From the NCBI GenBank assembly GCA_043806295.1, contig JAZDHA010000024.1, positions 1 through 28,126 of the forward strand: 28,126 nt of DNA. Direction: 5' to 3'. The stretch is from a bacterium. GTDB taxonomy: Bacteria > Patescibacteriota > Minisyncoccia > Phycocordibacterales > Phycocordibacteraceae. Below the pieces are notes generated by a model that saw only the letters and a program-made list of their open reading frames with translations, was not told the origin of the DNA and ran no database searches. The first letter of the stretch is position 1, and each line of letters opens with the position of its first letter. Positions 6,430 through 21,210 of the stretch are shown one piece after another. Made by a program: the position numbers and the translations under genes.

Positions 6430-7008
6430 ATGCTCGCAGTTCAGGCAAATGTTGAATATTGGTTTCGTCTTCTATACGAATGTATGCGTGGTGCATGTTA
6501 TGGATCACCTGGATTTTCAGAACTTTCATCGTGGTTCGCACATCTATGGTTATGGATTGTCGTTATTGGTTATATTCTTTCAATATTGGGACTTTTAGTT
6601 ATCGTCTATGCGACAATGCGTATTTTTGAATTGCGCAAGCGCGAAAAGGAATACTACTCCACGGTCATTCCGCCTCCAGGTGCAGATGACAACATAAATT
6701 CGCGTTGGAAGAATATCGAGACTCTTTCGAGTGGCACGAGTGCTAGCGAATGGCGCGAAGCAATTATTGAGGCCGACATTATGCTAGATGATTTGCTTGC
6801 CAGACATGGATATGTCGGAGATGGAGTTGGAGAAAAATTAAAGAGTGTTGAGCCAAATGACTTCAGTACATTGCAGGATGCATGGGAAGCGCACAAAGTG
6901 CGCAATCAAATTGCTCACGAGGGCTCAACATTCAATCTTTCCGAATCAATCGCACACCGCACCATCGCGCGATACGAATCCGTTTTTCGCGAGTTTAAGG
7001 AAATTTAA
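6430..7008 (+). CDS. Single-pass membrane protein with a C-terminal HEPN-like helical domain
   Basis: Hydrophobic segment WLWIVVIGYILSILGLLVIVY; cytoplasmic domain with AIIEADIMLD and RNQIAH (R-X4-H) at 6901-6918. Confidence 0.7.
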   Translation: MLAVQANVEYWFRLLYECMRGACYGSPGFSELSSWFAHLWLWIVVIGYILSILGLLVIVYATMRIFELRKREKEYYSTVIPPPGADDNINSRWKNIETLSSGTSASEWREAIIEADIMLDDLLARHGYVGDGVGEKLKSVEPNDFSTLQDAWEAHKVRNQIAHEGSTFNLSESIAHRTIARYESVFREFKEI

Positions 7009-7070: not shown

Positions 7071-7141
7071 CGCGGGGTAGAGGAGAGGTACCTCGTGGGG
7101 CCCATAACCCCAAGACGTCGGTTCGATTCCGACCCCCGCAA
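7071..7141 (+). tRNA. Initiator tRNA-Met (CAU)
   Basis: Full cloverleaf; C1:A72 mismatch, A11:U24, G-C run in the anticodon stem, CAT at 7103-7105, T-loop TTCGATT; CCA not encoded. Confidence 0.95.
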
Positions 7142-7146
7142 CTAGC

Positions 7147-7686
7147 ATGATTACAGATCAGCTCGACACAGCACTTTTTTACTCAATACATTCGCTTGCT
7201 GGACATTGGGCGGCTGTAGATTTTCTTATCGTTTTCTTCGGTGAATATTTTATCTACATCGTATTGGTGATTTTTATAATTGTTGCAATTCGCGCATACC
7301 AGAAAGAAAAACGAATTACAGAAATAACACCATATCTTGTGGCACTCATTGTCGCTGGTATCGCTAGATATACAATCACTCCAGCGATTCGTTTTTACTA
7401 CCATCACTTACGACCGTTTGTTGCGCTCTCGACCACGCATCTTATTACGGACACATCTTATTCTTTTCCTTCTGGACATACTATTGTTTTTTTCTCTCTT
7501 GCGACGGCAACATATTTCTTCAATAAAAAATTTGCGTATTTTCTTTATGTTTCAGGACTCATTGTAGGAATCGCACGAATTGTAGGTGGTGTGCATTATC
7601 CTTCGGATATTATCGGTGGAATTATACTTGGAATCGCAACGGGCGGGATTTTGTATTGGTTGTATACTAAGTGTCTATGCTCATAA
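7147..7686 (+). CDS. PAP2-family membrane phosphatase (BcrC-like)
   Basis: Three PAP2 motifs: R-x6-RP, SFPSGH and RIVGGVHYPSDI; several TM helices. Confidence 0.92.
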   Translation: MITDQLDTALFYSIHSLAGHWAAVDFLIVFFGEYFIYIVLVIFIIVAIRAYQKEKRITEITPYLVALIVAGIARYTITPAIRFYYHHLRPFVALSTTHLITDTSYSFPSGHTIVFFSLATATYFFNKKFAYFLYVSGLIVGIARIVGGVHYPSDIIGGIILGIATGGILYWLYTKCLCS

Positions 7687-8051
7687 ATGTCTGTATTGCA
7701 AAACTGCACCGCGCGACGGTTACTGACGCCGATCTTAATTATGTCGGTTCTATCACAATAGATGAGGCATTACTTGAAGCGGCTGGGCTTGTGCCGGGGC
7801 AGATGGTACAGATTACAAATCTTTCTAATGCCACGCTTTGGCGTACTTACATTATGAAAGGCGAAAAAGGTAAGGGGGAGATCATTCTAAATGGACCTCC
7901 AGCGCGGCTCTTTCAAAAGGGAGATAAAGTCGTGATCTTAGGCGAAGCGTGGATTGACGCGGCGGACGCAGCGAAAATGAGTCCGACTGTTGTCTTTATG
8001 GATGACAAAAATAACATTACTGAAGTAAAAAAGGGCTGGCATCCAAGTTAG
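7677..8051 (+). CDS. panD: PanD-family pyruvoyl-dependent decarboxylase with an altered substrate pocket
   Basis: From ATG 7677 it is collinear with E. coli PanD numbering: K9, H11, G24|S25, T57, Y58 and N72 are kept; R54 is L. Confidence 0.88.
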   Translation: MLINVCIAKLHRATVTDADLNYVGSITIDEALLEAAGLVPGQMVQITNLSNATLWRTYIMKGEKGKGEIILNGPPARLFQKGDKVVILGEAWIDAADAAKMSPTVVFMDDKNNITEVKKGWHPS

Positions 8052-8072
8052 GACACCCAGTGTCCTAACTTG
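8044..8072. repeat. Palindromic element, family A variant, overlapping the panD stop
   Basis: CAAGTTAGGACAC-CCA-GTGTCCTAACTTG, a 13-bp perfect stem; arm AAGTTAGGACA is identical to an arm of the recG element. Confidence 0.88.
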
Positions 8073-8160
8073 AGTTGCAAAAGCGATATTTGAGCGTACG
8101 CTTCTATCCAGAAGCTTTTGGTCTTTAGAGAAATCCACGAAAGTGGAAAGGGGGCATTAT

Positions 8161-9162
8161 ATGTATATGTATATAAGAGATTATCAACACCCGCTTCTTC
8201 GCGCTGCCGATCCGAGACGGAATCGGTTAGTTACATTGTTCCGCCTTGAACCTCCACTGAATCCATTTATGGACGATCATGTGGTCATCGATGCAGCGGT
8301 CGCGTATGGCGACTTGGCGAATGTAAAGATGATTCCGGCATTTTATATGCTTGCGGAATCAAAAAAGAAGGGACTGCTCGACGGAATACACACCATCGCT
8401 GAACCGACTTCCGGGAATTTTGGGAGCAGTATTGGATTGCTCGCTCCCGCTTTCGGCATACCGAATGTTGTCTTGTATATAAAAAAGGATTCGCCACCAG
8501 GGAAGACGCATGTGCTCGAGGCATTACCCTCGACAACGGTGATTAAGTATCCGCCGGGAGCAGGCAGACCAACCGGGCTCGAACTTGCAAAGGAATTTGC
8601 AAAACAGCCGGGAGTTATTTGCCTTAATCAGTATGGAAACCGGTTGAATCTCGAGTCACACTTTATGTATACAGGGCCGGCAATTTGGAGAGCGACACAC
8701 CAAAGCGTAACGGTTCTTGTTGGTGCGACGGGAAGCGGAGGAACACTCGGTGGTGCTGGCTTGTATTTAAAAAGCCGGAACAAAAAAATTGTCACTGTTC
8801 GAGCCGTAGCCGCTCCTGGCGAAGAAATTCCTGCAGGACGCACACTCAAGCAGATGGAAGAGATCGTTACCATCCCGTATCCGGAAAATACCTTCGACTT
8901 CACTCTTGACTGCGACAAAAAATCGGCGTATCTGAATGCTCTCGCGCTCGGAGAGCAAATACACAGCAAGCCCGGACCCACATCCGGTGAGACGCACAAA
9001 GTGACGATTAAGTGGATTGACGGAATGAAAAGAGTTGGGAATCTGGATCGTTATCGCAATAGTTCCGGAAATGTGCATGTTGTAGAGATCTTTGCAGATG
9101 CCATTGATCTCTATGCAGAACGAATTACTGGCGGTACGAATTACACGGAGGATGTACATTAA
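8161..9162 (+). CDS. Divergent cysteine synthase/CBS-family (fold type II) PLP enzyme; ORF open from GTG 8143
   Basis: PLP Lys in NVKMIP (8326-8328), EPTSGNF, NQY..N..SH..TGPAIW and GATGSGGT phosphate loop; AAGGGGG 6 nt before ATG 8161. Confidence 0.85.
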   Translation: MYMYIRDYQHPLLRAADPRRNRLVTLFRLEPPLNPFMDDHVVIDAAVAYGDLANVKMIPAFYMLAESKKKGLLDGIHTIAEPTSGNFGSSIGLLAPAFGIPNVVLYIKKDSPPGKTHVLEALPSTTVIKYPPGAGRPTGLELAKEFAKQPGVICLNQYGNRLNLESHFMYTGPAIWRATHQSVTVLVGATGSGGTLGGAGLYLKSRNKKIVTVRAVAAPGEEIPAGRTLKQMEEIVTIPYPENTFDFTLDCDKKSAYLNALALGEQIHSKPGPTSGETHKVTIKWIDGMKRVGNLDRYRNSSGNVHVVEIFADAIDLYAERITGGTNYTEDVH

Positions 9163-9201
9163 GCAAACCCCCAGCCGCGTAGCGGTTGGGGGTTAAGTTT
9201 T

Positions 9202-9229
9202 ACCACGAGGCGACGCCTCGTGGTTTTTT
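9202..9229 (+). terminator. Intrinsic terminator after the CysK-like gene
   Basis: ACCACGAGGC-GAC-GCCTCGTGGT (10-bp stem) followed by a T run; a second 13-bp hairpin lies just upstream at 9166-9194. Confidence 0.75.
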
Positions 9230-9947
9230 AGTCAATCGCTTTACGAATTATGAGGAACGGAGTCATTTCACTATCTTGTCCGGCTGGATTATCATGCAGA
9301 ATCTCACGAATAAATTTTTCACTGATGGCGTGCGTTGATTTTCCGAGCGAGAACGCACCGCGATAATTTGCGTCTACAATTACTGTTTCGGCCCCAAATC
9401 GTTCTTTAATTTTCTTTGCAACGCCGTTCGGATCCGCAGGCGCCTTTTTTGCATACTCTTGATACGGTTCAATCGTCCAAGACATCGGACAGTCAATCGA
9501 TTTTGCCATTTTGCCATTGATGAAATAAAACGCGCCTTTGATTCCAATCGGGCGCGTGAGCGCTGAAACAAAAGTCGCAAAAAGAACGCGCGGATATCCT
9601 GCCTCCTCTATCAATAATTGCATCGCGGGAGCTGTACCGTGTCCAAGACCGCGAAATTGTGGAGTACCAGCGTAGTTCCTAACTCGTTTTGATAGAAGTC
9701 GTGCGAGCCAAGAGGTTTTTACTTCATCACGCCTTATGATTCTGCCCTGAGTAAGACAAACAATTTTTTCACTTACAAAAATAATGTCATTTGGAGCAAG
9801 ATGCGGTGCTACATATTCCTGAATAATTTCCATCAAATCATCTCCTGCTTCTATAAGTCGTGTTTTGATAGGAAGTCGCAGATAACGCTCTTTTGCGACA
9901 AGAGCTTCAAGCGATTTTCCTTCGTTCGGGACGAGATAATTGGTCAT
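9228..9947 (-). CDS. Coenzyme F420-0:gamma-glutamyl ligase (CofE)-family protein
   Basis: LPIKTRLIEAGDDL, DIIFVSEKIVCLTQGR, PADP..VA..I and VIVDAN match the family pattern. Confidence 0.8.
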   Translation of the reverse strand: MTNYLVPNEGKSLEALVAKERYLRLPIKTRLIEAGDDLMEIIQEYVAPHLAPNDIIFVSEKIVCLTQGRIIRRDEVKTSWLARLLSKRVRNYAGTPQFRGLGHGTAPAMQLLIEEAGYPRVLFATFVSALTRPIGIKGAFYFINGKMAKSIDCPMSWTIEPYQEYAKKAPADPNGVAKKIKERFGAETVIVDANYRGAFSLGKSTHAISEKFIREILHDNPAGQDSEMTPFLIIRKAID

Positions 9948-21114: not shown

Positions 21115-21186
21115 ACGCCCATAGCTCAATGGTAGAGCAAACGACTTATACTCGTTACGTTGGGGGTTCGAGTCCCTCTGGGCGTA
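21115..21186 (+). tRNA. tRNA-Ile (UAU)
   Basis: Full cloverleaf; anticodon loop CT-TAT-AC (TAT at 21147-21149); Ile identity features A73, C4:G69, U12:A23 and C29:G41. Confidence 0.93.
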
Positions 21187-21210
21187 CAAATCTCTTATTC
21201 CAAATGTCGT

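What the first reader, a model, noticed from the sequence alone, without database searches (positions are those of the whole stretch)
7147..9947. Possible small pathway: PAP2 phosphatase + non-aspartate PanD + CysK-like enzyme (+ convergent CofE-family ligase)
PAP2 and the PanD-like gene overlap, the CysK-like gene follows on the same strand, and an amide-forming CofE-family ligase converges on the shared terminator. Chemically, a beta-substituted alanine made by the PLP enzyme could be decarboxylated to an amine (for example cysteamine- or taurine-like) and then ligated. The pathway is an inference from adjacency and chemistry only; the genes may be unrelated neighbours.
Basis: inference. Interest (0 to 1): 0.62.

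Follow-up and report, generated by a model that had tools for sequence, protein, structure and literature searches.

The report
Altered PanD decarboxylase gene module
A tiny-genome bacterium carries a relative of aspartate decarboxylase that has lost the residue needed to bind aspartate. In related genomes this gene repeatedly sits beside a cysteine-synthase-like enzyme and an amide-forming ligase, so the three probably make and attach an unknown small amine rather than the vitamin precursor beta-alanine.

Summary
The window (a 567-kb Patescibacteria genome) carries PAP2 (7147-7686), a PanD homologue (7677-8051, overlapping PAP2 by 10 nt), a CysK/CysM-like PLP enzyme (8161-9162) and a convergent CofE-fold ligase (9228-9947, minus strand).

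The PanD homologue belongs to a well-separated clade. It keeps every catalytic and self-processing residue. It has lost Arg54, the aspartate specificity residue, and Ala74-Ala75, and has an invariant Trp55.

Among about 165 PanD loci, only this clade is linked to the other genes:
- The PLP enzyme lies next to it in 12 of 24 loci.
- The CofE-like gene lies within 5 kb in 10 of 24 loci.
- The gene orders differ between loci.
- Canonical PanD loci gave 1 and 0 of 140.

All eight Patescibacteria genomes that hold this PanD also hold the CofE-like gene, against 28 of 401 in the phylum sample. The window's genome has no detectable PanC, CoaBC or CoaD.

PAP2 is a weaker partner: it is adjacent in 3 loci and is the genome's only clear PAP2. 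The CofE-like and PLP families also occur alone elsewhere.

So the pathway reading is partly supported. The linkage is real, but the chemistry is not shown. Earlier readers of this scan noted the same pattern on other genomes.

The parts
7071..7142 (+). tRNA-Met (CAT), 4 nt upstream of the PAP2 start. Context only; it may share a transcript with PAP2.
   Evidence: ARAGORN
7147..7686 (+). PAP2-family membrane phosphatase, 179 aa. Nearest named families are undecaprenyl-diphosphatases. It is an accessory or housekeeping neighbour of the module.
   Evidence: PF01569 72.5 bits. It falls below the SepP and PRK11837 equivalog cut-offs. It is the only PAP2 above cut-off in the genome, and no BacA was found. 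PAP2 is adjacent to cluster genes in L010 and L098 as well.
7677..8051 (+). PanD-fold pyruvoyl decarboxylase, 124 aa, of the Arg54-less, Trp55, Pro74-Pro75 clade. It is the hub of the module.
   Evidence: PF02261 and TIGR00223 matches. Leu54 by alignment to 2C45. Clade motifs. Clade support SH-aLRT 99. Overlaps PAP2 by 10 nt.
8100..8115 (+). Weak terminator-like hairpin (6-bp stem followed by TTTT) between PanD and the PLP gene.
8161..9162 (+). Divergent CysM-like fold-type-II PLP enzyme, 333 aa. It has no rhodanese domain.
   Evidence: Partial PALP match. Lys56, the SGN loop, Gln157, the GSGGT loop, the PGPTSG motif and the CysM-type PG-x-R Arg are conserved in alignment A2. The nearest solved structures are 8H4Q/8H4H, profile E 1e-70. 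It lies outside the canonical CysK/CBS clade.
9165..9224 (.). Two tandem GC-rich hairpins (9165-9193 and 9202-9224, the second followed by T6) in the convergent gap. Likely a terminator region that works in both directions.
9228..9947 (-). CofE-fold amide ligase homologue, 239 aa, of a divergent family not linked to F420.
   Evidence: PF01996 matches only residues 27-91. The AF2 model (pLDDT 83.4, pTM 0.83) matches only CofE structures 2PHN, 2G9I and 7ULD over its full length (E 1e-9, TM 0.57). It lies within 5 kb of the PanD clade in 10 of 24 loci.

Best explanation
The genes form a loosely organised functional module built around a PanD-family pyruvoyl decarboxylase whose substrate is no longer aspartate.

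Proposed steps, all inferred:
1. The CysM-like PLP enzyme makes a beta-substituted L-alanine by beta-replacement on an activated serine. O-phosphoserine is the likely substrate, because the CysM-type Arg is kept. Where this enzyme is missing, the amino acid would be imported.
2. The PanD paralogue self-cleaves at Gly24-Ser25 to form its pyruvoyl group. It then removes the alpha-carboxylate of this uncharged amino acid, giving a 2-substituted ethylamine.
3. The CofE-fold ligase activates a carboxylate as an acyl phosphate, using a nucleoside triphosphate, and joins it to that amine through an amide bond.

PAP2 is either the cell's general undecaprenyl-diphosphate phosphatase that happens to share the operon, or it links the product to a lipid- or phosphate-bearing envelope intermediate.

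Shown here: gene identities and folds, loss of the aspartate specificity residues, clade-specific linkage and co-occurrence, and absence of a pantothenate/CoA route. Not shown: the order of the steps and the identity of the substrates.
For: 1. The PanD homologue keeps Lys9, His11, Tyr22, Gly24-Ser25, Thr57, Tyr58, Asn72 and Asn112. It has Leu54 and Pro74-Pro75. Arg54, Ala74 and Ala75 are listed as strictly conserved in aspartate decarboxylases, and Arg54 is named as the specificity residue (PMC3314653).

2. The Arg54-less, Trp55 sequences fall on one side of a branch (SH-aLRT 99) even when the motif columns are removed. About 21 of the best 150 representatives of 50%-identity clusters belong to this set, with L, F, H, S or P at position 54.

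3. Linkage is specific to the clade. In 24 loci the PLP gene is adjacent in 12 and the CofE-like gene lies within 5 kb in 10, in at least three arrangements. In 140 canonical PanD loci the counts are 1 and 0. In 6 canonical Patescibacteria loci they are 0.

4. All 8 Patescibacteria genomes with this PanD hold the CofE-like gene, in three of them away from PanD (60 kb off on the same contig in G363, on another contig in G406 and G407). In the phylum sample it is found in 28 of 401 genomes. In that sample the CofE-like and PLP families coincide only in the two genomes that have this PanD.

5. No PanC, CoaBC or CoaD was found in this 93.6%-complete genome, and CoaE is below threshold.

6. Parallel case: Paenibacillus and Aneurinibacillus genomes each hold a canonical PanD plus a Trp55/Pro-Pro paralogue. 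In the one locus annotated (P. rigui) the paralogue is flanked by a ThrC-like PLP enzyme and two ATP-grasp ligases. That is the same combination of PLP enzyme, decarboxylase and amide ligase.

7. The ligase has the CofE fold, and CofE chemistry is NTP-dependent amide formation (PMC10861534).
Against: - No biochemical data exist for any member. The substrate, the product and the order of steps are inferred.
- The PanD homologue still passes the TIGR00223 equivalog cut-off.
- The partners are separable. G406 has PanD and the ligase but no PLP family member. L102 and L103 have PanD and the ligase only; L019 and L099 have PanD and the PLP enzyme only.
- The CofE-like family is far commoner than this PanD: 28 of 401 Patescibacteria genomes and 143 of 401 genomes in the phylum of Paenibacillus. 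Elsewhere it has no conserved neighbours, so its acceptor substrate cannot depend on PanD.
- Position 54 varies (L, F, H, S, P), so it may simply be released from constraint rather than shaping a new pocket.
- A weak terminator-like hairpin separates PanD from the PLP gene.
Confidence: 0.55

Rival explanations
1. The PanD homologue is still an aspartate 1-decarboxylase. It makes beta-alanine for a use other than CoA, for example a beta-alanyl conjugate made by the CofE-like ligase. The changes at positions 54, 74 and 75 would then be tolerated drift.
For: It passes TIGR00223 (117.6 against 106) and keeps all catalytic and self-processing residues. Public annotation calls the whole clade aspartate 1-decarboxylase.
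Against: - Arg54 is the reported specificity residue, and Ala74/75 are reported as strictly conserved.
- No conserved Arg replaces it: position 56 varies (R, Q, E, K, H, S, V), and Arg/His77 is also found in canonical enzymes.
- The clade is monophyletic with an invariant Trp55.
- Paenibacillus keeps a separate canonical PanD next to its paralogue.
- No PanC, CoaBC or CoaD was found here.
Confidence: 0.15
2. The module belongs to cell-envelope or lipid head-group metabolism, with PAP2 as an integral member. The amine, or its amino-acid precursor, would be attached to or released from a phosphate-linked lipid or polymer intermediate, for example a polyprenyl-phosphate-linked or glycerophosphodiester-linked one.
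For: - PAP2 overlaps PanD here. It overlaps or abuts cluster genes in two other arrangements, L010 and L098.
- In high-GC loci (L101, and L022 from a 3.8-Mb genome) the same PanD clade is followed by a glycerophosphodiester phosphodiesterase.
- An earlier follow-up in this scan reported a PanD plus CysK-like pair joined to a DedA membrane protein and a membrane ATP-grasp ligase (e1-792753; not verified here).
Against: - PAP2 lies within 7 kb in only 5 of 24 loci.
- It is the only PAP2 above cut-off in the genome, and no BacA was found, so it is probably the general undecaprenyl-diphosphate phosphatase.
- The PanD, PLP and CofE-like proteins have no predicted membrane parts that I noticed.
Confidence: 0.15
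3. The genes are unrelated neighbours. The PLP enzyme is a plain cysteine synthase, the CofE-like protein does a general job, and the PanD homologue is a relic.
For: Both partner families occur alone in many genomes. Structural look-alikes of the PLP enzyme include fusions to rhodanese and to cysteinyl-tRNA synthetase, which suggests cysteine synthesis. Small genomes pack genes tightly.
Against: Adjacency recurs in at least three different arrangements across families and is absent from canonical PanD loci. The ligase is present in 8 of 8 genomes with this PanD, against 7% background. The PanD clade is conserved (80-91% identity among the closest of its many homologues, with its catalytic residues kept), which a relic would not be.
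Confidence: 0.08

Closest known systems
Aspartate 1-decarboxylase PanD (PF02261 / TIGR00223), for example M. tuberculosis 2C45 and E. coli 1AW8
   Same: Same double-psi beta-barrel family and the same length. It has the Gly24-Ser25 self-cleavage site and keeps Lys9, His11, Tyr22, Thr57, Tyr58, Asn72 and Asn112. It is therefore very probably a pyruvoyl-dependent alpha-decarboxylase.
   Different: Arg54 is Leu (L, F, H, S or P across the clade). Ala74-Ala75 are Pro-Pro. Trp55 is invariant. There is no pantothenate/CoA context. Its neighbours are a PLP enzyme and an amide ligase rather than panB/panC.
CysM-type O-phosphoserine / O-acetylserine sulfhydrylases, and the PLP-rhodanese fusion proteins solved as 8H4H/8H4Q
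   Same: Fold-type-II PLP enzyme with the Schiff-base Lys, the SGN substrate loop, Gln, the glycine-rich phosphate loop, the Ser contact to the pyridine N, and the CysM-type PG-x-R arginine. It aligns over its full length with 8H4Q (profile E 1e-70).
   Different: It falls far below all equivalog cut-offs and lies outside the canonical CysK/CBS clade. It has no rhodanese domain, although its relative in a sister genus has one. It evolves very fast: 22-35% identity between the PLP enzymes linked to PanD. No CysE or rhodanese was found in the genome.
CofE / FbiB N-terminal domain, the F420-0:L-glutamate ligase (PF01996; 2PHN, 7ULD)
   Same: Same fold over the whole length (Foldseek probability 1.00, TM 0.57). 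The N-terminal 60 residues are recognisably homologous. It presumably forms amide bonds using a nucleoside triphosphate and an acyl-phosphate intermediate.
   Different: About 20% identity. Only the N-terminus matches the HMMs: 32 bits against the TIGR01916 cut-off of 180. The family is found in Patescibacteria and in 36% of sampled genomes of the phylum of Paenibacillus, groups not known for F420. Its acceptor and amine substrates are unknown.
Paenibacillus/Aneurinibacillus cluster: ThrC-like PLP enzyme, PanD paralogue and two YheC/D ATP-grasp ligases (uncharacterised; cluster annotated here in P. rigui, locus L024)
   Same: The same three-part combination of a fold-type-II PLP enzyme, a Trp55/Pro-Pro PanD paralogue and an amide ligase. 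The paralogue is present in addition to a canonical PanD.
   Different: Arg54 is retained there. The PLP enzyme is ThrC-like rather than CysM-like, and the ligases are ATP-grasp rather than CofE-fold.
Amine-forming decarboxylase plus amide ligase pairs in cofactor synthesis, such as MfnA/MfnD (tyramine and gamma-glutamyl-tyramine in methanofuran) and CobD/CbiB (aminopropanol phosphate in cobamides). Recalled from memory, as an analogy only.
   Same: The same pattern: decarboxylate an amino acid to an amine, then join the amine to a carboxylate using a nucleoside triphosphate.
   Different: The enzyme families are unrelated, and those decarboxylases are PLP-dependent. No evidence links this module to those cofactors.

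Membership tests
Aspartate 1-decarboxylase (PanD, TIGR00223) | Match to the family HMM above the curated cut-off | tested here: met
   TIGR00223 117.6 bits against 106; PF02261 136 bits
Aspartate 1-decarboxylase (PanD, TIGR00223) | Gly24-Ser25 self-processing site and catalytic Lys9, His11, Tyr22, Thr57, Tyr58, Asn72 | tested here: met
   Translation and ungapped alignment to 2C45
Aspartate 1-decarboxylase (PanD, TIGR00223) | Arg54, which binds the substrate beta-carboxylate and sets specificity | tested here: not met
   Leu54 here; L, F, H, S or P across the clade. The role of Arg54 is from PMC3314653.
Aspartate 1-decarboxylase (PanD, TIGR00223) | Strictly conserved Gly73-Ala74-Ala75 loop | tested here: not met
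   The loop reads NGPPAR here, and Pro-Pro is found in most of the clade
Aspartate 1-decarboxylase (PanD, TIGR00223) | A pantothenate/CoA pathway in the same genome to use beta-alanine | tested here: not met
   PanC, CoaBC and CoaD were not found, and CoaE is below cut-off, in a 93.6%-complete genome
Cysteine synthase CysK/CysM | PLP-binding and substrate-loop residues: Schiff-base Lys, S-G-N loop, Gln, G-S-G-G-T loop, Ser at the pyridine N | tested here: met
   These columns are invariant or nearly invariant in alignment A2
Cysteine synthase CysK/CysM | Score above the equivalog cut-offs (TIGR01136, TIGR01138, TIGR01139) | tested here: not met
   75-86 bits against cut-offs of 344-394. It also lies outside the canonical clade in the tree.
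Cysteine synthase CysK/CysM | Supply of O-acetylserine (CysE) in the genome | tested here: not met
   TIGR01172 was not found. Supply of O-phosphoserine was not tested.
CofE, F420-0:L-glutamate ligase | CofE fold | tested here: met
   AF2 model with pLDDT 83.4; Foldseek hits only 2PHN, 2G9I and 7ULD, E 1e-9, full length
CofE, F420-0:L-glutamate ligase | Score above the equivalog cut-off (TIGR01916 / NF009809) | tested here: not met
   32.1 bits against 180.65 and 274. Only residues 27-91 match, even with a family profile.
CofE, F420-0:L-glutamate ligase | Conserved GTP- and metal-binding residues, and an F420 pathway (CofC, CofD, FO synthase) in the genome | not tested
F420 synthesis is not expected in Patescibacteria; this rests on general knowledge and was not tested.
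PAP2 lipid phosphate phosphatase / undecaprenyl-diphosphatase | PAP2 HMM and the three catalytic motifs (x6-RP, PSGH, R-x5-H-x3-D) | tested here: met
   PF01569 72.5 bits. HLRP, PSGH and ARIVGGVHYPSD are visible in the translation.
PAP2 lipid phosphate phosphatase / undecaprenyl-diphosphatase | Equivalog-level match to a named undecaprenyl-diphosphatase | tested here: not met
   SepP 58.6 bits against 250; PRK11837 54 bits against 229

The most novel reading that the evidence does not exclude
The Trp55 PanD paralogues that lack Arg54 are a new specificity class of pyruvoyl amino-acid decarboxylases. They make a so far unknown small amine from an uncharged beta-substituted alanine. CofE-fold ligases, or ATP-grasp ligases in other lineages, attach this amine to a carboxylate. 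This would give a first function to the widespread CofE-like family not linked to F420, and would reveal a new small conjugate, possibly tied to the cell envelope, in ultra-small bacteria.
Probability: 0.4. Interest if true: 0.8.

Novelty: new variant of a known kind. Interest (0 to 1): 0.6.

Why it matters
Patescibacteria have almost no biosynthetic capacity. A conserved three-enzyme module kept in a 567-kb genome therefore probably makes something these cells need.

A whole clade is annotated in public databases as aspartate 1-decarboxylase: at least about 20 clusters at 50% identity, and well over a hundred clusters at 90% identity. It very probably does not make beta-alanine, so metabolic reconstructions that credit these organisms with beta-alanine or CoA precursor synthesis are likely wrong.

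The module also offers an experimental way into two uncharacterised families. One is a CofE-fold ligase family found in about a third of sampled genomes of the phylum of Paenibacillus and in 7% of Patescibacteria. The other is a fast-evolving CysM-like PLP family whose nearest solved relatives are PLP-rhodanese fusions of unstated function.

Tried and rejected
Neighbourhoods came instead from the search for related loci, the genome search and the fetch from genomes.
- I considered a CoA bypass: cysteine to cysteamine, ligated to pantothenate to give pantetheine. I rejected it because CoaD was not found and CoaE is below threshold.
- A plain cysteine-to-cysteamine route is also chemically doubtful, because free cysteine tends to form thiazolidines with carbonyl cofactors. 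This rests on my own knowledge and was not tested.
- A taurine-like route through cysteate fits poorly with loss of the cationic Arg54.
- I looked for conserved neighbours of the CofE-like gene in genomes without this PanD. None were found in 11 Patescibacteria loci or in 20 loci from the phylum of Paenibacillus.
- Literature searches found nothing relevant on PanD paralogues, on PanD in Patescibacteria, on CofE in candidate phyla, on clusters of ThrC, PanD and ATP-grasp genes, or on the PDB entry 8H4H.
- The PLP hit 8.2 kb from PanD in L101 is a canonical CysK and was not counted as linked.
- Some automatically extended ORF starts overshoot and give negative distances. They do not change which genes are neighbours.
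Full report
**What is in the window.** The window is contig C24 of a 566,680-bp genome in 78 contigs, estimated 93.6% complete. Its closest protein relatives are named Paceibacterota, Kaiserbacteria or Parcubacteria, all Patescibacteria. The gene order around the finding is:
- LigA, GatC, GatA and a 192-aa protein with no family;
- tRNA-Met (7071-7142);
- PAP2 (7147-7686, +);
- a PanD homologue (7677-8051, +);
- a fold-type-II PLP enzyme (8161-9162, +);
- a CofE-like gene (9228-9947, -);
- a membrane-fusion protein and MacB-type ABC exporter.

The PanD ATG at 7677 overlaps the PAP2 stop by 10 nt. A Shine-Dalgarno-like GGGGG precedes ATG 8161. The 65-nt convergent gap holds two GC-rich hairpins, the second followed by T6.

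**The PanD homologue.** It aligns without gaps to M. tuberculosis PanD.
- Kept: Lys9, His11, Tyr22, Gly24-Ser25, Thr57, Tyr58, Asn72 and Asn112.
- Changed: position 54 is Leu, and the loop 73-77 reads G-P-P-A-R.
- A review of ADC structures lists Arg54, Ala74 and Ala75 among the strictly conserved residues and names Arg54 as the specificity determinant (PMC3314653).

I collected about 165 PanD loci from one genome-collection scan, one metagenome scan and a phylum sample. They fall into two sharply different motif classes. About 140 are canonical: N-G-x-R-[FLI]-x-T-Y with N-G-A-A-A. Twenty-three loci plus the window have a non-Arg at 54 (L, F, S, A or Y), an invariant Trp55 and, in all but two loci, Pro74-Pro75.

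In a maximum-likelihood tree built with these motif columns removed, the non-Arg set is one side of a branch with SH-aLRT 99. An exhaustive search of representatives of 50%-identity clusters found about 21 such clusters among the best 150, with L, F, H, S or P at position 54. No conserved replacement arginine exists. Position 56 varies, and Arg/His77 is shared with canonical enzymes.

**Linkage test.** Counts for the 24 clade loci are below.

| Partner | Loci | Which |
|---|---|---|
| PLP enzyme immediately adjacent | 12 | window, L010, L017, L019, L020, L021, L023, L097, L098, L099, L100, L104 |
| CofE-like gene within 5 kb | 10 | window, L017, L020, L021, L023, L098, L102, L103, L104, L107 |
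| PAP2 within 7 kb | 5 | window, L010, L017, L020, L098 |

Many of the remaining loci are contigs of 1-5 kb, which could not show a neighbour. The gene orders differ:
- window: PAP2 > PanD > PLP > < CofE;
- L021, L023, L104: < PLP < CofE | PanD >;
- L010: < PanD | PAP2 > PLP >;
- L098: PanD > < CofE, PLP > PAP2 >.

Among 140 canonical PanD loci with the same flanks, one has a CysK nearby and none has a CofE-like gene. Fisher p is about 1e-10 for each comparison, which overstates the case because relatives are not independent. Six canonical PanD loci from Patescibacteria have none of the partners.

**Genome-level co-occurrence.** In a 401-genome sample of the phylum:
- the clade's PanD is in 2 genomes;
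- the full-length CofE-like family is in 28;
- the full-length PLP family is in 8;
- the last two coincide only in the two genomes that have this PanD.

All eight Patescibacteria genomes known here to have this PanD hold the CofE-like gene. These are G000, G363, G406, G407 and the genomes of L017, L020, L021 and L023. In G363 it lies 60 kb away, and in G406 and G407 on another contig. G406 has no member of the PLP family, and L102 and L103 show PanD with the ligase only. PanD is thus the hub, and either partner can be missing.

**Not a pantothenate gene.** PanC, CoaBC and CoaD were not found in the window's genome. CoaE gave only a sub-threshold P-loop match.

Five Paenibacillus and Aneurinibacillus genomes each hold two PanD genes. 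One is canonical. The other is a Trp55/Pro-Pro paralogue that keeps Arg54. In the one locus I annotated (Paenibacillus rigui, L024) that paralogue is flanked by a ThrC-like PLP enzyme (NF006050, 433 bits) and two YheC/D-type ATP-grasp ligases. The combination of a PLP enzyme, a PanD paralogue and an amide ligase therefore recurs in an unrelated phylum with different partner families.

Earlier notes of this scan describe the same PanD and PLP pairs, with or without a CofE-like gene, on several other genomes. One follow-up describes a version with a DedA protein and an ATP-grasp ligase. I treat these as leads. My own loci reproduce the PLP, CofE-like, GH130-neighbour and N-terminally extended CofE-like patterns.

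**The PLP enzyme.** All PLP-binding and substrate-loop residues are conserved:
- Lys56 and the S-G-N loop;
- Gln157;
- the G-S-G-G-T loop;
- the P-G-P-T-S-G motif.

So is an Arg in a P-G-x-R motif, which aligns with the P-G-I-R of E. coli CysM. In CysM-type enzymes this Arg is associated with anionic substrates such as O-phosphoserine or thiosulfate; that point comes from my own knowledge.

The enzyme scores far below every equivalog cut-off. The PLP enzymes linked to PanD lie outside the canonical CysK/CBS clade and are only 22-35% identical to one another. The window's own subclade has just seven relatives at 53-71% identity.

The nearest solved structures are 8H4Q and 8H4H, deposited as 'rhodanese domain-containing protein' (profile E 1e-70, full length). 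In G143, a sister genus without PanD or the ligase, the family member is a PLP-rhodanese fusion. Structural look-alikes include fusions to cysteinyl-tRNA synthetase. The ancestral job was therefore probably a cysteine-synthase-like sulfur transfer. The PanD-linked forms have lost rhodanese, and the window's genome has neither rhodanese nor CysE.

**The CofE-like protein.** Sequence methods recognise only residues 27-91, even with a family profile. An AlphaFold2 model (pLDDT 83.4, pTM 0.83) matches only the CofE structures 2PHN, 2G9I and 7ULD over its whole length (E 1e-9, TM 0.57, about 20% identity). CofE forms amide bonds using GTP and Mn2+ at a dimer-interface site (PMC10861534).

The family is highly conserved internally. 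It is found in 143 of 401 sampled genomes of the phylum that contains Paenibacillus, with no conserved neighbours. It therefore has a general role that does not depend on F420. In Patescibacteria that role has become linked to the PanD paralogue.

**PAP2.** It has the catalytic motifs. It is the only PAP2 above cut-off in the genome, and no BacA-type phosphatase was found, so it is the best candidate for the housekeeping undecaprenyl-diphosphate phosphatase. Against pure coincidence, it abuts or overlaps cluster genes in three different arrangements. In addition, the same PanD clade in high-GC loci (L101, and L022 from a 3.8-Mb genome) is followed by a glycerophosphodiester phosphodiesterase. 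I keep an envelope or lipid link as a rival or extension, not as the main reading.

**Verdict.** The genes are functionally linked, with PanD as the hub. The PanD paralogue very probably does not act on aspartate. The most economical mechanism has three steps:
1. The PLP enzyme makes an uncharged beta-substituted alanine, or the cell imports one.
2. The PanD paralogue decarboxylates it.
3. The ligase joins the amine to a carboxylate through an amide bond.

Identities of the amino acid, the amine and the acceptor are unknown. Cysteamine is chemically doubtful, and a taurine-like product fits poorly with loss of Arg54. Within the searchable literature I found no description of this PanD clade or of the module.

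Noticed in passing
L024:5850-9556 (Paenibacillus rigui); also L026, L028, L030, L038: Five Paenibacillus/Aneurinibacillus genomes each hold a second PanD paralogue (Arg54 kept, Trp55, Pro-Pro) in addition to a canonical PanD. In Paenibacillus rigui (L024), the one locus annotated, it lies between a ThrC-like PLP enzyme and two YheC/D-type ATP-grasp ligases. These organisms can be cultured, so they would suit experiments.
   Followed up: partly
L101:9779-11367 and L022:464-1794: In high-GC loci (L101 on a 1.29-Mb metagenome contig; L022 from a 3.8-Mb genome), the Arg54-less PanD (motif NGFFWRTY) is followed directly by a glycerophosphodiester phosphodiesterase (PF03009). There is no PLP or CofE-like neighbour.
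   Followed up: partly
L204-L223 (20 genomes of the phylum of Paenibacillus): The divergent CofE-like family of the window is present in 143 of 401 sampled genomes of that phylum. It is a solitary gene with no conserved neighbours, and some copies lie in open frames of 490-660 aa, which may be fusions. This is a large family of unknown function that is annotated as an F420 ligase.
   Followed up: partly
L021:6837-7883, L103:3118-4158, L104:820-1866: Three of the CofE-like genes linked to PanD carry an N-terminal extension of about 110 aa (346-348 aa in total) that matches no Pfam family.
   Followed up: partly
L224:4026-5495 (G143, same family as the window's genome): A sister genus without PanD or the CofE-like gene has the PLP family member fused to a rhodanese domain. 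This is the same architecture as the fungal proteins solved as 8H4H/8H4Q.
   Followed up: partly
P0364: A 5081-aa protein in the representative library matches residues 31-93 of the PanD query in 29 separate stretches at 32% identity and has no Gly-Ser processing site. It appears to be a giant repeat protein built from a PanD-like beta-barrel unit.
   Followed up: no
window 21115-21187: A tRNA-Ile with anticodon TAT. The genome can therefore read AUA with a dedicated tRNA rather than a lysidine-modified CAT tRNA.
   Followed up: no
window 6430-7008: A 192-aa ORF between GatA and tRNA-Met has no Pfam or NCBIfam match.
   Followed up: no
L017:4795-7984, L018:4786-7879, L020:1-845: In Kaiserbacteria-like relatives the PanD gene lies divergent from a pair of GH130 (mannoside phosphorylase-like) genes. 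L018 has PanD there with no PLP enzyme anywhere in the genome.
   Followed up: partly
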